Shown here piece by piece: positions 219 to 20,791 of a stretch of 20,791 nt of DNA. Every line of letters starts with the position of its first letter. The first letter of the stretch is position 1. The DNA is taken from IMG/VR virus record IMGVR_UViG_2563366825_000026, positions 1 through 20,791 of that record. One strand, given 5' to 3'. The DNA is from a virus (Duplodnaviria; Heunggongvirae; Uroviricota; Caudoviricetes). The position numbers and the translations under genes are program-made. The notes beneath the pieces are model-generated. The model was not told the DNA's origin. It saw only the letters and a list, made by a program, of their open reading frames with translations, and did not search any database.

Positions 219-350
219 TCACCCCAGCAGCCCCGACGAAGACAACATCATCCAGGCCATGGAAAGAAAAAGAGCAACCAGCATTAGTGAAAATGAAATG
301 CCGACAATTACACAGAGGATCTTCGCCAGCGTTATGAGTTTGTCTGACAT
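219..350 (-). CDS. small hydrophobic membrane protein (43 aa), unknown function
   Basis: ATG at 350 with GGAGG 7 nt upstream; [43 protein letters not shown] is essentially one TM helix. Stop lies 12 nt before the Rz ATG. The longer track ORF 219..440 starts at a GTG with an implausible Cys-rich N-terminus. Confidence 0.45.
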
Positions 351-364
351 GCTTAATCCTCCCT

Positions 365-547
365 TCACGATTTCAACGCAATGACCAGTTTTGCCAGCCC
401 ATACAGCATCGGGGACACAGCAACACCGACCGCCACCCACTTAATGGCAAAAGCCAGTGCTCTGCTGATGTCATCAGTTACAGGCGCTTTCAGTTCAAGG
501 CCGTTTTTCATAGTCAACCTCAACAGAATTCGTTTATACTTTTCCAT
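365..547 (-). CDS. small membrane protein (60 aa), unknown function
   Basis: ATG at 547 with AAGGGAGAA upstream; [60 protein letters not shown] has a C-terminal hydrophobic helix. The track's longer version starts at a GTG at 580. Confidence 0.45.
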
Positions 548-580
548 GTTCTCCCTTGCCTTATCCAAGGTCAGAAACAC

Positions 581-613
581 AAAACCCCGCTTGCAGCCAA
601 CAAACGGGGTTTT
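581..613. terminator. bidirectional intrinsic-terminator-like hairpin between endolysin and the small membrane genes
   Basis: 9-bp perfect stem AAAACCCCG (581-589) / CGGGGTTTT (605-613), 15-nt loop, U-rich tract following on both strands. Confidence 0.5.
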
Positions 614-703: not shown

Positions 704-1237
704 TTATCTGTCAATTCCCCAGCACGCCAGCGCACTCTCCTGGTCGCGACGGGATACCTGACCGTAACAGTTGTTTGAGCGAATACGGCAGTCTCTGCCA
801 CCGTCCTTAATCCACCAGCGAATCGCTTCGCATGCTCCCCTGCGATCACCTGCATTAATTCGTCTGTAAAACGTCGACGGGAAACACTTACCGGGACCAA
901 TGTTGTACGGACAGAATGACGCGATCCCCGCTTTCTGGGGTTCGGTCAGCGGCACTCTGATATTTTTCTCCACCCACGCCAGCGCTTTATCACGCTCAAT
1001 GGCGTTAACCTGGTCGCATTTTTCCTTCGACAACTTCATGCCCGGAACGACAGGTTTGCCATCCACCATGATGGCACCACGGCAGATGGTCCAGATACCT
1101 GCACCATCACGGTATGCCGTGGTGTGGTTACCTTCCTTTTCATCCAGAAACTGGTCGAGAATTTCAGGCGCAGAAGCCCCTGCGGCAATCAGCGCCAGAA
1201 CGGCAGCCGACAGGCCGTATTTGATTTTTGCGTTCAT
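704..1237 (-). CDS. R: phage endolysin, lysozyme with N-terminal SAR (signal-anchor-release) segment, P21 R-like
   Basis: 177 aa. N-terminal YGLSAAVLALIAAGASA hydrophobic stretch, then lysozyme-like body (TAYRDGAGIWTICRG, CPYNIGPGKCFPSTFYRRINAGD, ACWGI) resembling the phage 21 endolysin as I recall it. Sits in a lysis cassette with a pinholin. No Shine-Dalgarno seen upstream of the ATG. Confidence 0.85.
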   Translation of the reverse strand: MNAKIKYGLSAAVLALIAAGASAPEILDQFLDEKEGNHTTAYRDGAGIWTICRGAIMVDGKPVVPGMKLSKEKCDQVNAIERDKALAWVEKNIRVPLTEPQKAGIASFCPYNIGPGKCFPSTFYRRINAGDRRGACEAIRWWIKDGGRDCRIRSNNCYGQVSRRDQESALACWGIDR

Positions 1238-1348
1238 GGATATTTATCAGGATTTATCGGTTCCGAATCCCTGGATATGTTAAGCCTTCACCCCGCCAGT
1301 GGTGGGCACTGGCCAGGGTATGTCAATCTGATAAACACAGAGGTGACT

Positions 1349-1609
1349 ATGGATTATCCAAATCTACCAAAACAAACTTTTGCTGATTTAATCGCACTCA
1401 GGCAAGCAGTCGTAGCTCTAATCAACGTGTTGCCGGATGAGGAAAAGGAATTAGTTAAAGCAATTCTTAACAGAACTGCCGCCGATTTTTCATCATTCCC
1501 ACTGACAGATGACCTTGCGGACCTTCCTGAATTAATTGCAGCGTCCGCCATTAAGCTTACTGAAGAGATTTACTCTCCTCAAAAGCCTTCACAAAATTCC
1601 TGCGAGTAA
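1349..1609 (+). CDS. hypothetical acidic protein (86 aa), convergent with and overlapping the 3' end of the 211-aa gene
   Basis: ATG at 1349 preceded by GAGGTG; MDYPNLPKQTFADLIALRQAVVALINVLPDEEKELV... has about twice as many acidic as basic residues. Fills an otherwise unexplained 320-bp gap upstream of the endolysin. The 53-nt antisense overlap with a confident gene keeps confidence low. Confidence 0.35.
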   Translation: MDYPNLPKQTFADLIALRQAVVALINVLPDEEKELVKAILNRTAADFSSFPLTDDLADLPELIAASAIKLTEEIYSPQKPSQNSCE

Positions 1610-2192
1610 CTTCAATGCAATAATCGTAAAACGCCGCGAACTGCTCATCGCGGCGTTTTTCTTCAGGCCGCTGAAGATGCTCTTTCAACCGTGAAGCGCA
1701 GCTTAGATGCGCCGCGCGATCAAGAATAGTTTCTTTCATTTCATCTGCTGCAAGCACCTCATTTTTTGTTGGGGTGCTTTTTTTCAATTCAGCGATATAG
1801 CACTCCAGTTTTTCAATGCGTGATTCAATATCATCGTTTTCTGACCGCAATGCCGTCGGTGGCGTCTTCAGAGAACCAGTAATTATTCCCGGTAGTTTTC
1901 CTCTGTAGGTTATCAACACATCCTGCGCCTCTAAAATTATGGGGCGCTTTTCCGGCGACTGCTCATCCCCTTCACATAAAGCGGCAGCAATATCCATGAA
2001 AAACTGCTTCGCCTGTTTTTTCGCCTCAGCCTCGTAAAATTCCAGCGTGGCACCTTCAGTACGGTCAAGACTAATCGCCACATTTGGCAACAACAGTGAC
2101 GGATACCCACCAATTTCCAGTGCCACAGTAACAGTAATCTTATCCGGGTAATTATTTATCCCTTTAACAACCAGTTTGTATTGTTTATTCAT
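1557..2192 (-). CDS. hypothetical protein (211 aa) inserted between holin and endolysin; globular N-terminal region plus charged, probably coiled-coil C-terminal half
   Basis: ATG at 2192 lies 4 nt after the holin stop, with GGGGAGAG inside the holin 3' end (translational coupling). Long clean ORF with protein-like composition. I recognise no family. Confidence 0.75.
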   Translation of the reverse strand: MNKQYKLVVKGINNYPDKITVTVALEIGGYPSLLLPNVAISLDRTEGATLEFYEAEAKKQAKQFFMDIAAALCEGDEQSPEKRPIILEAQDVLITYRGKLPGIITGSLKTPPTALRSENDDIESRIEKLECYIAELKKSTPTKNEVLAADEMKETILDRAAHLSCASRLKEHLQRPEEKRRDEQFAAFYDYCIEVTRRNFVKAFEESKSLQ

Positions 2193-2196
2193 CGCC

Positions 2197-2412
2197 TTAC
2201 TCTCCCCGCGCTGCCTTACGACGGTCCTCTCTGATTTTGAAATACAGGTTAGTCAGATATGTCAGCAGCCCAAACAGCAGACTCCCCAGCACGCCTATTG
2301 CCGCCCACTGAGACGGGGAAACCCTGTCCAGCAACTGCAGGAACCAGTAGCCCGTTCCCACCGCTGACGTGGTGTATGACACACCTGTTGTGATTTTTTC
2401 CATCTGGTACAT
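2197..2412 (-). CDS. S: pinholin / antiholin, class II holin S21-like with dual start
   Basis: [71 protein letters not shown] matches my memory of the phage 21 pinholin S21 almost residue for residue in the TM and C-terminal regions. Met1 (2412) and Met4 (2403) give the classic antiholin/holin dual start. GGGAG 9 nt upstream. Confidence 0.85.
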
Positions 2413-3142: not shown

Positions 3143-5125
3143 TTATGCTGATTCCCGGTTTTCGTTAACTTTGACTGTGACCGTATCAAGCAGTACCGGA
3201 TACGTCGCTTTTGCCCCCGTGATATCTGTCAGCGTCAGCGTATCTGCTGTAAAGCCATCATTTGTCCACATCACCAGGTCAAACGCAGACTGCTCTGCAT
3301 CATCAATCACCGGCACCACTTTTTCGCTGTTATTTCCCGCAAAGCGGAAAACAACTGTATGCCAGTTATGGTCAAATGCCCCAAATGTGCCCAGTTGCGC
3401 ATTCGACTCCCCCTTGTGGTACATCAGATTCAGATTTGATGCATCCGTCTGAAGGAAGAAGGACGCCAGCATGCTGTTTGCTGTCGCGCCTGACGCCCAC
3501 TGCGACACCGGCCAGTACAGACCAAAGACAAACTGACCGTTAACCAGTTCGACACCCTCCGGGATCTTAAACCGCACGGCAATTTCACCTCCCTTACTGA
3601 GAAGATTTTTTGCCTCCTCCACCGCAACAGTACGGAACATCTTCCAGGAGGTCAGTTTACCCGGCTGTTTTTCCAGTCGCAGCGCCTTCCTGCCACTGTC
3701 ATCCGTCACAGTGCCTTTACCACCGGACGCATTCCACTGCTGCTCTGTCCATACACCACTGCCACTGTTCGCATCATATCCGGCCACCATTCTTGTTACG
3801 GCTTCAGTATGACCGCCTGCAGAAATACCTGCACCCTGCTGTTGCGTCGGACCCGCAGAGCCAGACTGTGCATCCCCCGTGGAGGCTGGCGTGGTCGCCA
3901 GCGGTGCAGACTGCCCGCTCAGGAACGGCAGCAAACGCCCGGCTCGCACCAGTATCTCTCCTGCCAGCCGATCTGAAACAATGCCTCTTCGCGCCCAGGA
4001 GCTGAAGTGCGTTTTACGAGCGGCTGTCGTCCAGTTACCATTACTGCGTGACGCGGCACCATAGTATCCCGCCGTGATAATGTCCGGATCTTCTGACGGC
4101 TCGTTTGTCGGCACATTCGCACCATGCTCATCCGTCATCAACGGCACAAAGTGAATATTCTGCGCCGCCTTGCCTTTATAGCCTCCGTAAACCGCCTCAT
4201 ACTGCACTGCATACTTCGCCTTCCAGTCGTACGTGGTGTCACCGCAAATCCACGGGACGCCGGACGTTGTCCCGCCAATACACTGGTCTGCAATATCTGC
4301 CAGGTCTGCACGGTATTTATTTACCATGGCAAGAAAAAGTGCATTGTGCTCTGCATGTCTCCCCGAACTGACATCTTTTTCCCCCTGCATCCAGATCACC
4401 GACAACAGCACGTTTTTCGGATTTTTCTTCAGGGCTGCACGCGTTCTGCTGACCAGGTCACGATACAACGGTTTATCCACCCCCCACAGGGAAGAGCCCG
4501 CTGTCGCACCCGACGCCTCATTAAACGCGCCCTCTGCTCCCGCAGTAAATCCCGAATCGCCACGTCCACACGGGACAAGAAGGATCCCCGCACGGGCAGG
4601 CATAAACGGCAGCAGTTTTTTGGCCACATGCAGGGCATGCCCCACACAGCCATACTGCCCTTTATTGAGGTCTGCTTTCGGGTGATTCAGATTACTCACG
4701 TCCTGCACATCATGCAGACAATGGTCTGCAGGAATAATGTCGTTATATGCACAGGCCGCACCGCCCGGTGTCACCGTGCTGCGACGCGCCAGTTGCTTAA
4801 TACGCGGGTCAGGACGATCATACGTATCCGGCAGCGGCAGCCCCTCGCCAAAAGACATCGAGTTGGACTGCCCGGCCAGCGCAATGACAAAGTAATATTC
4901 CGGTTCGCTGGTGGTGCTGATAACAGCGCCACCATCACCCGACGGTTGCACCACCACCGGTGTGGTGACATCACCTTCCGCCGCAATGGCCTGCATCAGG
5001 GTATAGGGCGTGATGGCGACAGGGCTGCCAAATGGCTGCCACCCCTCCTTCAGTTTTTGAGTCAGTCGCTCCGCAAGGTCTGACGGCGACGCCGCCCTGA
5101 CCACGTCATAGTGTTTAAATGTCAT
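3143..5125 (-). CDS. nanS: prophage-encoded sialate O-acetylesterase, NanS-p-like (N-terminal DUF1737-like region + SASA/SGNH esterase domain + C-terminal domain)
   Basis: 660 aa; ATG at 5125 with GGGAGG upstream. The FVIALAGQSNSMSFGEG block is the esterase-type GQSN motif. Size and architecture match the NanS-p proteins found just upstream of the lysis genes in Stx-type lambdoid prophages. Confidence 0.8.
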   Translation of the reverse strand: MTFKHYDVVRAASPSDLAERLTQKLKEGWQPFGSPVAITPYTLMQAIAAEGDVTTPVVVQPSGDGGAVISTTSEPEYYFVIALAGQSNSMSFGEGLPLPDTYDRPDPRIKQLARRSTVTPGGAACAYNDIIPADHCLHDVQDVSNLNHPKADLNKGQYGCVGHALHVAKKLLPFMPARAGILLVPCGRGDSGFTAGAEGAFNEASGATAGSSLWGVDKPLYRDLVSRTRAALKKNPKNVLLSVIWMQGEKDVSSGRHAEHNALFLAMVNKYRADLADIADQCIGGTTSGVPWICGDTTYDWKAKYAVQYEAVYGGYKGKAAQNIHFVPLMTDEHGANVPTNEPSEDPDIITAGYYGAASRSNGNWTTAARKTHFSSWARRGIVSDRLAGEILVRAGRLLPFLSGQSAPLATTPASTGDAQSGSAGPTQQQGAGISAGGHTEAVTRMVAGYDANSGSGVWTEQQWNASGGKGTVTDDSGRKALRLEKQPGKLTSWKMFRTVAVEEAKNLLSKGGEIAVRFKIPEGVELVNGQFVFGLYWPVSQWASGATANSMLASFFLQTDASNLNLMYHKGESNAQLGTFGAFDHNWHTVVFRFAGNNSEKVVPVIDDAEQSAFDLVMWTNDGFTADTLTLTDITGAKATYPVLLDTVTVKVNENRESA

Positions 5126-5348: not shown

Positions 5349-5696
5349 GTCCATAAGAAAGCCCCTCCGGAGAGGGGCTGGAGAGTGGCGCTATGTGCCA
5401 TTGCATGGTGCCGGGTGCCTCCCGGTGAGTTCAGTATCAGCACCTGAACCCGCACAGAAAGGATAAGGGTCGGTGACAAAACACCAGTTGCTGATTGCCC
5501 CTCCGCACAGGGGGATTCACCATGCCAGTTTCTTTTAACAAACTCCCCGCAAACCAGACAACAGTCAACCGCCTGAATTGTGAGGTATTTAAAAATTTCA
5601 ACGGGTAACTGATACCCTGCTAATCGCCTGATGCTTTCTTTTTCAGCAACGGGGAAGCAACAACCACCACACCCACCAGCCGCCCATTTACCACAA

Positions 5697-13427: not shown

Positions 13428-14102
13428 ATGAAAACAGTCCATGACATCCGGCGGTCTAACGCCAGAAAACTGAGAGATGGTGTTGGCGGGAATTCTTCCT
13501 TTGCCACCATGATTGATCGCGAGCCAACCCAGACCAGCAGGTTTATGGGAGATGGTGCTACTAAAAATATCGGTGACAGCATGGCACGGCACATCGAAAA
13601 ATGTTTCGACCTGCCTGTCGGATGGCTTGATCAAGAACACCAGACAACAAACATCACAAAAAAACCTGATGTTTCAATTACTAACAAACAAATAACGTTA
13701 GTCCCTGTCATATCATGGGTACAGGCCGGAGCATGGAAAGAAGTTGGCTATTCTGAGGTTGATTTGAGCACAGCAGAAACTTATCCCTGCCCTGTACCCT
13801 GTGGCGAAATGACTTATATCTTGCGGGTGATTGGTGATTCAATGATTGATGAGTACCGCCCGGGAGACATGATTTTTGTAGATCCTGAAGTCCCTGCCTG
13901 CCACGGTGACGACGTTATTGCATTGATGCACGATACAGGCGAAACCACCTTTAAGCGGTTGATAGAAGATGGAACACAGCGTTACCTCAAAGCATTAAAC
14001 CCAAACTGGCCTGAACCTTACATTAAGATCAACGGTAATTGCTCTATAATTGGCACAGTAATTTTCTCAGGAAAACCAAGAAGATACAAAATAAAGGCCT
14101 AA
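13428..14102 (+). CDS. cI: CI-like prophage repressor with N-terminal HTH and C-terminal LexA-like S24 peptidase (autocleavage) domain
   Basis: 224 aa. XRE-like HTH (SFATMIDREPTQTSRFMG) and C-terminal VIGDSMIDEY...TFKRL Ser/Lys dyad typical of LexA/cI-type self-cleaving repressors. Followed by a strong terminator. Confidence 0.85.
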   Translation: MKTVHDIRRSNARKLRDGVGGNSSFATMIDREPTQTSRFMGDGATKNIGDSMARHIEKCFDLPVGWLDQEHQTTNITKKPDVSITNKQITLVPVISWVQAGAWKEVGYSEVDLSTAETYPCPVPCGEMTYILRVIGDSMIDEYRPGDMIFVDPEVPACHGDDVIALMHDTGETTFKRLIEDGTQRYLKALNPNWPEPYIKINGNCSIIGTVIFSGKPRRYKIKA

Positions 14103-19477: not shown

Positions 19478-20791
19478 ATGGATAAAGTCAAATATCCAAC
19501 AGGCGTCGAAAACCACGGCGGCACATTACGCATCTGGTTTAATTTTAAAGGTAAACGTGTCAGGGAAAATCTTGGTGTCCCTGACACTGCCAAGAACAGG
19601 AAGATCGCCGGGGAACTGCGGACATCGGTATGTTTTGCCATCCGCACAGGAAGCTTTGATTATGCTGCACAGTTCCCTGACTCCCCCAACCTTCAGGCTT
19701 TTGGGGTAAGTAAAAAAGAAATTACGGTGAAGGAACTTGAAGAAAAGTGGCTGGATCTGAAACGAATGGAAATCTCTGCAAATGCATTCAATCGCTATGA
19801 ATCCGTTGCAAGAACGATGGTTTCGAAAATTGGAGGCAGTAGACTGGTGTCATCGGTAACCAAAGAGGAATTGCTGTATATCAGGAAAGATTTGCTAACC
19901 GGGTATCAGAATTCAACGAAAAACAAAGCAGCAGCAAAAGGACGGAGCGTCGTTACTGTAAATTATTACATGACGACAATCGCTGGAATGTTTCAGTTTG
20001 CTGCAGATCACGGTTACTTAGAAGCAAATCCCTTCCAGGGAATTAAGCCTCTTAAAAGAGCCAGGGCAGAGCCAGATCCGCTAACTCGTGACGAATTTAT
20101 TCGCCTGATAGATGCTTGCCGACATCAGCAGACGAAAAACCTGTGGTCATTGGCTGTGTACACAGGAATGCGTCACGGTGAACTGGTCTCCCTGGCCTGG
20201 GAAGATATCGATCTGAAGGCAGGAACAATTACCATCAGGCGCAATTATACGAAACTTGGTGAGTTCACTCTACCGAAAACTGAAGCAAGCACAAACAGGG
20301 TTGTGCACCTTATCCAGCCCGCTATCAGTGTCCTGAAAAATCAGGCTGAAATGACAAGACTGGGTAAGCAGTACAACATCAAGGTGCAACTACGTGAATA
20401 TGGACGTTCAGTGAACCATGAATGTACTTTCGTGTTTAACCCTCAAGTGGTTAGAAAAAGCGAACAGGTAGGTTTTGTCTACAAAGTCGATTCTGTAGGT
20501 GACTCATGGGAAACAGCCATTAAGCGTGCAGGGATCAGGCATCGAAAGGCATACCAGTCACGACACACTTATGCGTGCTGGTCATTATCTGCCGGAGCAA
20601 ACCCAAGCTTCATTGCCAGCCAGATGGGCCATGCAAGTGCCCAGATGGTATTCAATGTATACGGAGCATGGATGACTGACAGCAATGCAGAACAGATCGC
20701 AATGCTGAATCAGAAGCTGACAGATTATGTCCCAATGATGCCCCATAGTCACCAAAGTGACACCAGAGGCTTATTAAAATCAGTAAGTTAA
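19478..20791 (+). CDS. int: tyrosine site-specific integrase (lambda Int family)
   Basis: 437 aa with TGGAGGT SD. Catalytic-domain signatures (R...HxxR...Y: RHGELVSLAWEDID, SRHTYACWSL, MVFNVYGAWM). The stop codon is the last three bases of the window. Confidence 0.9.
   Translation: MDKVKYPTGVENHGGTLRIWFNFKGKRVRENLGVPDTAKNRKIAGELRTSVCFAIRTGSFDYAAQFPDSPNLQAFGVSKKEITVKELEEKWLDLKRMEISANAFNRYESVARTMVSKIGGSRLVSSVTKEELLYIRKDLLTGYQNSTKNKAAAKGRSVVTVNYYMTTIAGMFQFAADHGYLEANPFQGIKPLKRARAEPDPLTRDEFIRLIDACRHQQTKNLWSLAVYTGMRHGELVSLAWEDIDLKAGTITIRRNYTKLGEFTLPKTEASTNRVVHLIQPAISVLKNQAEMTRLGKQYNIKVQLREYGRSVNHECTFVFNPQVVRKSEQVGFVYKVDSVGDSWETAIKRAGIRHRKAYQSRHTYACWSLSAGANPSFIASQMGHASAQMVFNVYGAWMTDSNAEQIAMLNQKLTDYVPMMPHSHQSDTRGLLKSVS

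What the first reader, a model, noticed from the sequence alone, without database searches (positions are those of the whole stretch)
1295..1609. Convergent acidic 86-aa ORF with its own SD and an upstream 7-bp palindrome, antisense to the late operon
The 320-bp gap upstream of the endolysin holds a plus-strand ORF (ATG 1349, GAGGTG SD) for an acidic 86-aa protein whose last 17 codons overlap the 3' end of the 211-aa gene on the opposite strand. Upstream lies the palindrome GCCAGTG-gtggg-CACTGGC (1295-1313). A gene transcribed against the late operon needs its own promoter and would be expressed in the lysogen. Together with the 211-aa gene it could be a two-gene module (toxin/immunity or effector/regulator).
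Basis: partly seen in the sequence, partly recalled or inferred. Interest (0 to 1): 0.55.

Follow-up and report, generated by a model that had tools for sequence, protein, structure and literature searches.

The report
Small antisense gene beside phage endolysin
The 86-codon reading frame is a real but uncharacterised small prophage gene with its own likely promoter and terminator, one of several interchangeable small genes found at this spot next to the lysis enzyme gene, and what it does is still unknown.

Summary
ORF 1349-1609 (+), the GAGGTG Shine-Dalgarno, the palindrome at 1295-1313 and the 53-nt convergent overlap with the 211-aa gene are all present.

The ORF is a genuine gene. It is PHROG 2572 and a RefSeq "hypothetical protein", found in about 294 of 5426 complete E. 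coli genomes. Three subfamilies at 40-50% identity are under purifying selection (dN/dS about 0.3).

It has the anatomy of a moron cassette lying antisense in the late operon:
- a conserved -35/-10 pair (TTTATC, 17 nt, TATGTT)
- a Shine-Dalgarno sequence
- an intrinsic terminator at 1629-1659 that sits inside the late-strand gene.

At least seven unrelated small ORFs follow this same promoter region in other prophages. The window still carries the 3' end and terminator of a displaced 91-aa cargo gene (1661-1779).

The "two-gene module" idea is partly supported. Every subfamily keeps a late-strand ORF reading through the terminator and 53-59 nt into the small gene. Only that ORF's last 36 or so codons are shared, however, and the DUF1327 part is dispensable.

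Transcription was not tested and the protein's function is unknown. The model is an acidic three-helix bundle with no informative relatives. I file it as a new member of a known kind, of moderate interest.

The parts
1243..1258 (+). Direct repeat TTTATC-aggA-TTTATC. The second copy (1253-1258) is the proposed -35 element and the A/T-rich first copy may act as an UP-like element. It starts 5 nt from the endolysin ATG on the other strand.
   Evidence: ATATTTATCAGGnTTTATCnG is conserved in all three ORF86 subfamilies, including subfamily B, where no endolysin start lies beside it. In 118 of 120 IMG/VR matches it abuts the endolysin ATG. The promoter role is inferred, not measured.
1276..1281 (+). 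Proposed -10 hexamer TATGTT, 17 nt after the -35. The predicted transcription start is near 1288.
   Evidence: TAT(G/T)(T/G)T at a 17-nt spacing is conserved in subfamilies A, B and C and upstream of all the alternative cargo ORFs. It is absent from loci that lack a cargo gene (GACAGGTT or other sequence instead). It scores 7 of 12 to consensus, so the 9-of-12 scan did not report it.
1295..1313 (+). Palindrome GCCAGTG-gtggg-CACTGGC, proposed to be a stem-loop near the 5' end of the leader RNA (about +8 to +26). It is also the left boundary of the exchangeable cargo.
   Evidence: Folds at -18.5 kcal/mol within 1285-1325. The same palindrome precedes five unrelated cargo ORFs (91, 95, 98, 104 and 190 aa). 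Other classes have a different hairpin at the same place: CAGCCUG/CAGGCUG, CCGAACCA/UGGUUCGG with CC/GG changed to AA/UU, and CCC.GCAGG. Similarity between the window and L107 stops exactly after CACTGGC.
1340..1345 (+). Shine-Dalgarno GAGGTG
   Evidence: Read. It is GAGGTG or GAGGCG in subfamily A and TAAGGA 7 nt before the start codon in subfamilies B and C.
1349..1609 (+). ORF86: an 86-aa acidic protein predicted to have three helices (H8-27, H30-48, H56-74) and a disordered C-terminal tail. PHROG 2572.
   Evidence: phrog_2572 at E 3.6e-50. RefSeq WP_001625288.1 and WP_001306174.1 "hypothetical protein". dN/dS is 0.22-0.39 for nearly all comparisons between subfamilies (up to 0.60 for L101 against subfamily C), with dS above 1 in most of them. 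Indels are in frame. Intact in 52 of 57 non-redundant loci. AlphaFold2 pLDDT 67-70.
1557..1609 (.). 53-nt convergent overlap between the 3' end of ORF86 and the 3' end of the 211-aa late-strand gene
   Evidence: The overlap is 53 nt in subfamily A and 59 nt in B and C. It covers mostly the low-confidence C-terminal tail of ORF86 (pLDDT below 50 from residue 76 or 78).
1629..1659 (+). Intrinsic terminator of ORF86: stem 1629-1638 pairs with 1647-1656, an 8-nt loop, and a T-tract at 1655-1659 (T8 in most relatives). It lies inside the late-strand ORF, where it encodes KRRDEQFAAF.
   Evidence: -20.1 kcal/mol, z -2.9. The hairpin is conserved in A, B and C, with 87.5% of cells paired against 30-60% when the partner columns are slid. 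There is one clean compensatory pair (G-C to A-U), a second at the loop end of the stem, and two wobbles that pair only in the + strand RNA.
1560..1664 (-). The last 35 codons of the 211-aa protein (EEKRRDEQFAAFYDYCIEVTRRNFVKAFEESKSLQ). This is the only part of the late-strand partner shared by all ORF86 subfamilies.
   Evidence: It is the only minus frame open across the hairpin and overlap in all subfamilies, while the same frame carries 5-9 stops further on. Between subfamilies dN/dS is about 0.7-1.3 with depressed dS, which cannot be interpreted because of the overlap and the hairpin.
1557..2192 (-). The 211-aa late gene: a DUF1327/YdfR domain (residues 1-112), a coiled segment, a stretch antisense to the relic cargo, and the 35-residue tail.
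   Evidence: PF07041 at E 1.4e-41; phrog_2091 and phrog_1085. It is a chimera: forms without ORF86 end ...KEH(L/F)QQP* at the junction (P0067, P0106).
1661..1729 (+). Relic 3' end (...AEDALSTVKRSLDAPRDQE*) of a different 91-aa cargo gene (phrog_18136), which ORF86 displaced
   Evidence: Window 1663-1960 is nearly identical to the region downstream of the intact 91-aa gene in L130, and similar to that in L107.
1752..1784 (+). Orphan intrinsic terminator of the displaced 91-aa gene (AAGCACCTC-10 nt-GGGGTGCTT, then a T-run)
   Evidence: Reported by the terminator scan. -18.6 kcal/mol, z -4.5. It follows the stop codon of the intact 91-aa gene in L130.
704..1237 (-). Endolysin (phage lysozyme). 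The cassette promoter region starts directly at its start codon.
   Evidence: PF00959 at E 3.3e-24. Annotated as lysozyme or R in relatives.
2197..2412 (-). Class II (phage 21 type) holin, which marks the late-operon strand
   Evidence: PF04971 at E 9e-33.

Best explanation
ORF86 is the protein-coding cargo of a self-contained moron cassette (about 1238-1665) that lies antisense in the late (lysis) operon of a lambdoid prophage, directly against the endolysin start codon.

The proposed parts, in order, are:
- a weak sigma-70 promoter (TTTATC, 17 nt, TATGTT, with an A/T-rich repeat upstream)
- a Shine-Dalgarno sequence and the 86 codons
- an intrinsic terminator 18 nt after the stop.

Because the cassette is convergent with late transcription, its terminator and last 17 codons are also read on the other strand, as the last 36 codons of the late gene. 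That frame is kept open.

The same promoter region carries at least seven unrelated small ORFs in other prophages. This is therefore an exchangeable accessory slot, and here ORF86 has replaced most of an earlier 91-aa cargo.

Inferred, not shown:
- The gene is transcribed from its own promoter whenever late transcription is off (in the lysogen, and at entry). Oncoming, Q-antiterminated late transcription then silences it.
- The leader hairpin protects the mRNA 5' end from decay.
- The product is a small acidic cytoplasmic three-helix protein that acts by binding another protein or nucleic acid in phage-host or phage-phage conflict (lysogenic conversion, exclusion or counter-defence).
For: It is a real gene.
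- dN/dS is 0.22-0.39 for nearly all comparisons between the three subfamilies (40-50% identity), with dS above 1 in most.
- Indels are in frame.
- It is intact in 52 of 57 non-redundant loci.
- It matches PHROG 2572 over its full length and is annotated by PGAP. It occurs in sequenced phage genome records such as PhiR5_1 and in about 294 of 5426 complete E. coli genomes.

It has its own expression signals.
- The -35, 17-nt spacer, -10 and Shine-Dalgarno are conserved in A, B and C although the leaders between them are unrelated.
- The -10 is present only where a cargo gene is present.
- Subfamily B keeps the upstream repeat with no endolysin start beside it.

The leader hairpin is conserved as a structure rather than a sequence, and begins within about 8 nt of the predicted start in nearly all classes.

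Terminator.

Cassette behaviour.
- The conserved block 1238-1665 ends just past the terminator in 76 of 85 loci.
- K-12 Qin lacks the cassette, while Qin in other strains has it.
- It sits at three different positions in late operons, always antisense.
- Alternative cargos and the relic of one are documented.

The late operon lies on the minus strand: holin, endolysin and an STnc100 match at 5349-5554.

From the literature: accessory or moron loci are often highly expressed during lysogeny (abstract of PMC7067206). From my own knowledge: morons carry their own promoter and terminator (Juhala et al. 2000), lambda bor is antisense to the late operon, and 5'-terminal stem-loops stabilise E. coli mRNAs (the ompA work of Emory, Bouvet and Belasco, 1992).
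Against: - There is no transcript, start-site or protein evidence at all.
- The promoter is only 7 of 12 to consensus and fell below the scan threshold.
- The upstream repeat abuts the endolysin ATG in most loci, so part of its conservation could serve endolysin translation.
- Among close relatives selection looks relaxed: dN/dS is 0.47-0.85 within subfamilies, and about 9% of non-redundant loci carry start-codon or frame lesions.
Confidence: 0.62

Rival explanations
1. ORF86 and the late-strand protein that overlaps it form a cognate two-protein module. One example would be an inhibitor made in the lysogen that neutralises a late protein made with the lysis genes (antitoxin-like, or regulator and effector). 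Convergent transcription would then flip the balance at induction.
For: - The pair co-occurs in all three diverged subfamilies with the same geometry, a 53-59 nt 3' overlap, and at three different positions in the late operon.
- The partner frame is the only one kept open across the hairpin and the overlap.
- Stand-alone 67- and 73-aa partners have their own start codons directly after the preceding late gene.
- Within subfamilies the non-overlapping part of the partner gives dN/dS of 0.1-0.4 in three of the closer pairs, although other pairs are near 1.
- Both genes are intact in about 50 of 57 non-redundant loci.
Against: - The two genes physically overlap, so co-occurrence is partly forced.
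- The shared part of the partner is only about 36 codons. Between subfamilies it shows dN/dS near 1, as expected if only its translation, or the DNA beneath it, matters.
- The N-terminal parts are unrelated to one another: DUF1327, none, and the 144- and 181-aa forms.
- Other cargos in the same slot do not overlap the late ORF at all. For the 98-aa cargo the late ORF stops before the terminator, as read by eye from the sequence printed.
- L111 keeps the partner beside a truncated ORF86.
- There is no match to any known toxin, antitoxin or defence family.
- The complex prediction could not be run.
Confidence: 0.2
2. The act of convergent transcription, or the antisense RNA, is the function. On this reading the + strand promoter, firing into the 3' end of the late gene just upstream of the endolysin, damps leaky late transcription or endolysin expression in the lysogen. 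The small ORFs would be interchangeable passengers.
For: - The promoter, -10 and leader hairpin are conserved, while the cargo is replaced by unrelated ORFs.
- In most loci the slot lies directly against the endolysin start.
- The endolysin has a hydrophobic N-terminus (LSAAVLALIAAGASA). This suggests a signal-anchor-release enzyme whose leaky expression would be harmful. That is my own inference.
- An analogous case is lambda OOP RNA, which is antisense to the 3' end of cII (own knowledge).
Against: - ORF86 is under purifying selection as a protein, and each cargo class has a good Shine-Dalgarno and keeps its reading frame.
- Subfamilies B and C sit at positions that are not next to an endolysin.
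- The terminator limits the antisense transcript to about 100 nt of the late gene's 3' end. It never covers the endolysin gene itself.
Confidence: 0.12
3. The ORF is a chance open frame in the spacer, and only the minus-strand gene and the endolysin upstream region are functional.
For: - Many spurious ORFs of similar length exist in the window.
- One RefSeq genome does not annotate it.
- Some loci have lost the start codon.
Against: - dN/dS is about 0.3 between subfamilies where dS is saturated.
- Indels are in frame.
- Homologues at 40-50% identity keep length, Shine-Dalgarno and terminator in different genomic positions.
- Most of the ORF (1349-1556) overlaps no minus-strand gene.
Confidence: 0.03

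Closest known systems
Morons of lambdoid phages, especially lambda bor (own promoter, antisense to the late operon, next to the lysis genes, expressed in the lysogen)
   Same: - A small accessory gene sits between conserved late genes and is absent from close relatives (K-12 Qin).
- It has its own promoter-like elements and an intrinsic terminator.
- It is oriented against late transcription and lies in the lysis region.
   Different: - Bor is a lipoprotein, whereas ORF86 is a soluble acidic helical protein with no signal peptide.
- The ORF86 terminator and 3' end lie inside a late-strand coding sequence rather than in a spacer.
- Expression in the lysogen is documented for bor and untested here.
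Exchangeable accessory or defence hotspots of prophages (for example the P2/P4 hotspots, or moron slots with conserved flanks and variable cargo)
   Same: - The flanks and promoter region are conserved, with at least seven unrelated cargo ORFs.
- Cargo has clearly been replaced, leaving a relic of the earlier gene.
   Different: - The cargos here are single small ORFs of 86-104 aa (one of 190 aa) with no match to known defence or anti-defence families.
- No defence phenotype is known.
Lambda OOP RNA and cII, and bidirectional terminators shared by convergent genes
   Same: The 3' ends of convergent transcripts overlap by tens of nucleotides, around a hairpin flanked by an A-run and a T-run.
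   Different: - ORF86 is a protein-coding mRNA, not a small RNA.
- The hairpin sits inside the late ORF.
- Wobble pairs indicate that the structure is selected on the + strand only.
- No effect on the late mRNA has been shown.
Type II toxin-antitoxin or toxin-immunity pairs
   Same: Two small genes that travel together, one of them acidic.
   Different: - They are convergent and overlap at their 3' ends, not co-transcribed.
- They match no known toxin or antitoxin family.
- The partner's N-terminal part is variable, and only a tail of about 36 residues is shared.
YdfR / DUF1327 (E. coli K-12 Qin)
   Same: Residues 1-112 of the 211-aa neighbour belong to this family. YdfR was reported to bind the catalytic N-terminal half of RNase E and to co-purify with RNA (PMC13232886).
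   Different: - This concerns the neighbour, not ORF86.
- K-12 YdfR (103 aa) has neither the tail nor ORF86 next to it.

Membership tests
Moron (phage accessory gene cassette) | Present between genes that are adjacent in related phages | tested here: met
   In K-12 Qin, ydfR abuts rrrQ with no insert. In Qin of strain 2013C-4282 and in the window, the cassette lies between them. The block 1238-1665 is shared by 76 of 85 loci with different flanks.
Moron (phage accessory gene cassette) | Own promoter | tested here: inconclusive
   A conserved -35 TTTATC, 17-nt spacer and -10 TAT(G/T)(T/G)T are found in all subfamilies and cargo classes, and the -10 is absent from loci without cargo. The match is only 7 of 12 to consensus (not reported), and there are no start-site data.
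Moron (phage accessory gene cassette) | Own terminator | tested here: met
   A hairpin followed by a T-tract lies 18 nt after the stop. It is conserved, with compensatory and + strand wobble changes. Termination itself was not measured.
Moron (phage accessory gene cassette) | Expressed from the repressed prophage | not testable with these tools
   No RNA-seq or TSS data were accessible, and literature searches found nothing on this gene.
PHROG 2572 | Full-length profile match | tested here: met
   E 3.6e-50 over residues 1-86 of 86. The distant homologues P0019 and P0020 also match. The family has no known function.
Pfam DUF1823 (the label used in the PhiR5_1 record) | Score at or above the gathering threshold (25 bits) | tested here: not met
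   15.3 bits, E 0.023, covering only 30 residues. Homologues P0019, P0020, P0025 and P0027 give no Pfam hit at all.
Type II toxin-antitoxin or known anti-phage defence system | Homology of either partner to a known toxin, antitoxin or defence protein | tested here: not met
   PADLOC gave no hit for ORF86, its homologues or the partners, apart from a Cmr5 match at E 0.018 on the 211-aa protein that I treat as noise. Pfam and NCBIfam gave none.
Type II toxin-antitoxin or known anti-phage defence system | Physical interaction, or neutralisation of one partner by the other | not testable with these tools
Conserved overlapping (dual-coding) gene pair | Both frames are kept open in diverged relatives, and each shows constraint | tested here: inconclusive
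   Both frames are open in A, B and C, and the partner frame is open only in the tail region. ORF86 is clearly constrained. The partner tail has dN/dS near 1 with depressed dS, which cannot be interpreted inside an overlap that also holds a hairpin.
Rho-independent terminator | A G+C-rich stem followed directly by a U-tract on the transcribed strand | tested here: met
   Six G-C pairs plus A-U pairs, then T5 in the window and T8 in most relatives. Subfamily C has a weaker tail (TTGTCGCTCATTT).

The most novel reading that the evidence does not exclude
The small gene and the late-strand protein that reads through its terminator are a co-evolving antagonistic pair linking lysogeny to lysis. The acidic three-helix protein, made from the quiescent prophage, would hold in check a late protein, often fused to the RNase E-binding DUF1327 domain. 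Convergent, antiterminated late transcription would switch the small gene off at induction. The slot next to the endolysin would then hold a family of such interchangeable switch cassettes.
Probability: 0.15. Interest if true: 0.65.

Novelty: new member of a known kind. Interest (0 to 1): 0.4.

Why it matters
If the anatomy is right, this is a clean and compact example of how temperate phages fit an independently expressed accessory gene into an essential operon. The terminator and the end of the gene double as coding sequence on the other strand, and the cargo can be swapped behind a fixed promoter and leader.

The slot next to the endolysin gene holds at least seven families of small proteins of unknown function in E. 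coli, Shigella and Salmonella prophages. About 5% of complete E. coli genomes carry the ORF86 version. These proteins are natural candidates for new lysogenic-conversion, exclusion or counter-defence factors, and their small size makes them easy to test.

It also corrects annotation. The long DUF1327 genes that overlap these cassettes are called pseudogenes by the NCBI pipeline, although at least one of them has an intact reading frame.

Tried and rejected
- Function by homology gave nothing useful. Pfam gave only a sub-threshold DUF1823 hit. NCBIfam and PADLOC gave none. PDB sequence search gave only noise, and Foldseek against PDB gave nothing below E 4.
- I tested whether ORF86 is distantly related to three of the other cargos in the slot (90, 91 and 104 aa). 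hhalign probabilities were below 1%, so I rejected this.
- I tried to predict an ORF86-partner complex as a linker fusion with a paired alignment.
- Literature searches for the accessions, the PHROG number and the phage names returned nothing relevant. A search on DUF1327 found one incidental mention.
- There is no Rfam family in 1238-1800.
- I considered the palindrome as an operator. I rejected this as the leading reading because the hairpin is conserved in position and structure, but not in sequence, across classes.
- I considered the hairpin at 1629-1656 as a late-strand structure. The two wobble variants pair only in the + strand RNA, so that is less likely.
- I considered the 36-codon tail of the late gene as accidental read-through. 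The frame is selectively open in all subfamilies, so that is also less likely.
Full report
**1. What is in the window.**

The window is a lambdoid prophage.
- The integrase (19478-20791) and an S24-type repressor (13428-14102) are on the + strand.
- The late operon is on the minus strand. It includes an STnc100 match at 5349-5554, which I take to be the late leader, a sialate esterase at 3143-5125, and DUF1378 and DUF826 genes.
- The late operon continues with a phage-21-type holin (2197-2412), a 211-aa DUF1327 protein (1557-2192) and a lysozyme (704-1237).

- the palindrome GCCAGTG-gtggg-CACTGGC at 1295-1313
- GAGGTG at 1340-1345
- an ATG at 1349 and an 86-codon frame ending at 1609, which overlaps the end of the 211-aa gene by 53 nt.

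The protein is acidic, with pI 4.3. By themselves these features are not beyond chance. Seven-base palindromes are common (29 in the window, about 9 expected), and so are ORFs of this length.

**2. It is a real gene, already catalogued but uncharacterised.**

- The stretch 1240-1660 occurs at 80% coverage or more in 294 of 5426 complete E. coli genomes.
- The NCBI pipeline calls the ORF a hypothetical protein, WP_001625288.1 or WP_001306174.1.
- It is PHROG 2572. It is present in sequenced phage genome records, where PhiR5_1 labels it "DUF1823 containing protein". That label fails Pfam's threshold.
- Database searches found three subfamilies:
  - A: 86 aa, in E. coli and Salmonella
  - B: 93 aa, GTG start, in Salmonella-type prophages
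  - C: 89-93 aa.
- Between subfamilies identity is 40-50%. Synonymous sites are mostly saturated (dS above 1 in most pairs) and dN/dS is 0.22-0.39 for nearly all pairs, reaching 0.60 for L101 against subfamily C. Length differences are in frame.
- Of 57 non-redundant loci, 52 have an intact gene. The rest have ATG changed to ACG or ATA, a 2-nt insertion or a truncation.

**3. It has its own expression signals.**

Upstream of all three subfamilies lies ATATTTATCAGGnTTTATCnG. Exactly 17 nt after the second TTTATC comes TAT(G/T)(T/G)T, and later a Shine-Dalgarno sequence (GAGGTG in A, TAAGGA in B and C). The sequence between these elements is unrelated among subfamilies.
- In the window, the -35 is 1253-1258 and the -10 is 1276-1281.
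- The pair is weak, 7 of 12 to consensus, which is why the scan did not list it.
- In most loci the repeat touches the endolysin ATG, so some of its conservation could serve the endolysin.
- Two facts argue for a promoter. Subfamily B keeps the repeat where there is no endolysin start. The -10 is present only in loci that carry a small gene.

The terminator lies 18 nt after the stop: AAAACGCCGCGA-actgctca-TCGCGGCGTTTTT (stem 1629-1638 with 1647-1656, -20 kcal/mol).
- Most relatives have a T8 tract.
- The stem is conserved in A, B and C, with 87.5% of cells paired against 30-60% for slid controls.
- There is one clean G-C to A-U exchange and a second exchange at the loop end of the stem. Two wobble variants pair only in the + strand RNA.
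- The sample is small: 8 distinct sequences, with 23 of 500 shuffles doing as well.

**4. The palindrome.**

With a start site about 7 nt after the -10, the palindrome occupies roughly +8 to +26 of a 60-nt leader. The same palindrome, with small variants, precedes five other, unrelated ORFs. One variant (GCCGGTG) keeps pairing through a G.U wobble.

Other classes have a different hairpin in the same place:
- CAGCCUG/CAGGCUG before a 90-aa ORF
- CCGAACCA/UGGUUCGG in subfamily B, with CC/GG changed to AA/UU between two members
- a third form in subfamily C.

Conservation of position and pairing, but not of sequence, fits an RNA stem-loop at the mRNA 5' end. Such stem-loops are a known stabilising device in E. 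coli (own knowledge). This fits better than an operator does. It is an inference that rests on the predicted start site.

**5. An exchangeable slot, and a relic in the window.**

A scan of IMG/VR for the upstream repeat returned 120 matches, of which 118 abut the endolysin ATG. Behind the shared -10 there are at least seven unrelated cargos:
- ORF86
- a 90-aa ORF (phrog_2411, the commonest)
- a 104-aa ORF (phrog_1853)
- a 91-aa ORF (phrog_18136)
- a 98-aa ORF (phrog_25324)
- a 95-aa ORF (phrog_10490)
- a 190-aa ORF.

None has a known function, and ORF86 shows no profile similarity to the three I tested. Some loci have no cargo and no -10.

The window is identical to 91-aa-cargo loci up to the last base of the palindrome. 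It then diverges, and becomes nearly identical again from about 1661. So 1661-1729 is the relic 3' end of the 91-aa gene, and the hairpin at 1752-1784 is its now orphan terminator. ORF86 and its terminator (1314-1660) replaced the first two-thirds of an earlier cargo.

**6. The relation to the 211-aa gene.**

The 211-aa protein is a chimera with four parts:
- a DUF1327 domain (residues 1-112)
- a coiled segment
- a stretch that is antisense to the relic
- 35 residues (EEKRRDEQ...SKSLQ) that are antisense to the ORF86 terminator and tail.

Forms without ORF86 end ...QQP* at the junction.

In every ORF86 subfamily a late-strand ORF reads through the terminator and 53 nt (A) or 59 nt (B, C) into the small gene. 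Its upstream part varies:
- DUF1327 fusions of 168-243 aa
- stand-alone proteins of 67 aa (P0084, in about 400 contig blocks) and 73 aa
- forms of 144 and 181 aa that have no DUF1327 match, and whose N-terminal halves do not resemble each other.

The pair sits at three positions in late operons: between holin and endolysin, after Rz, and shortly after the antiterminator gene. It is always antisense.

The partner frame is the only minus frame without stops across the hairpin and the overlap in all subfamilies. The same frame has 5-9 stops in the next 70 codons. The frame is therefore maintained.

Between subfamilies, however, the tail shows dN/dS of 0.7-1.3 with depressed dS. This is what overlap and hairpin constraints alone would produce. 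The data therefore do not tell whether the tail matters as protein, or only needs to be translated. Translation might, for example, keep the hairpin from forming in the late transcript. That last idea is my own speculation.

K-12 has YdfR without the cassette, and one locus keeps the partner beside a truncated ORF86.

**7. The protein.**

The gene is small, acidic, cytoplasmic, fast-evolving and interchangeable with unrelated small genes behind one promoter. That profile is typical of phage accessory genes involved in conflict with the host or with other phages. This is a class-level inference and not a demonstrated function.

**8. Verdict.**

Lysogen expression is untested, and the module idea needs redefining.
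- The closest known kind is the lambdoid moron, with lambda bor as the nearest analogue in position and orientation.
- The unusual points are the terminator and gene end embedded in a maintained late-strand reading frame, and the multi-cargo slot with a shared promoter and leader hairpin.
- I rate it a new member of a known kind, with interest 0.4.

Noticed in passing
window 1661-1784: The relic 3' end of a different small gene (91 aa, phrog_18136) and its intrinsic terminator lie just downstream of the ORF86 terminator. The 211-aa late gene therefore reads antisense through two + strand terminators in tandem.
   Followed up: yes
window 1238-1281; loci L115-L234: The region directly upstream of the endolysin ATG is a multi-cargo slot. 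The same repeat and -10 precede at least seven unrelated small ORFs (86-190 aa) in IMG/VR prophage contigs, all of unknown function.
   Followed up: partly
window 1243-1258: The direct repeat TTTATC-N4-TTTATC has one helical turn between copies, which resembles a binding site for a dimeric regulator. I could not assign any regulator to it.
   Followed up: no
L003 2820-3371; L002 and L004 equivalents: RefSeq annotates the long DUF1327 gene as an incomplete pseudogene ("missing C-terminus"). In L003 an intact 183-aa frame runs through to the shared tail, and 183-aa forms are abundant in the protein database (P0051, 681 members). This is probably an annotation artefact of the overlap. I read the frame in L003 only.
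   Followed up: partly
window 1857-2192 (-): The DUF1327 domain of the neighbouring gene belongs to the YdfR family. A 2026 paper reports that YdfR binds the catalytic half of RNase E and co-purifies with RNA (PMC13232886). A link to the hairpin-protected leader of the convergent gene would be pure speculation.
   Followed up: partly
window 5349-5554 (-): A full-length match to Rfam STnc100 (143 bits). I take it to be the short leader transcript of the late promoter, which places the start of late transcription upstream of the esterase gene.
   Followed up: no
window 583-613: A perfect hairpin AAAACCCCG...CGGGGTTTT, flanked by A and T runs, lies about 90 nt past the end of the endolysin gene. 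It looks like a bidirectional terminator inside the late operon. Rfam gives only a weak, sub-threshold rimP-leader hit there.
   Followed up: no
window 219-580 (-): Downstream of the endolysin there are two small overlapping ORFs (71 and 73 aa) where an Rz/Rz1 pair might be expected. Pfam had no match for the 71-aa ORF, and the 73-aa ORF was not scanned. The closest genome annotates short hypothetical proteins here and places a "lysis protein" further on.
   Followed up: no
L111 3497-3607: One E. coli prophage keeps the tail-bearing late protein (181 aa, with an N-terminus that has no Pfam match) next to a 5'-truncated ORF86 that retains only residues 50-86. This shows the pair can decay asymmetrically.
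   Followed up: partly
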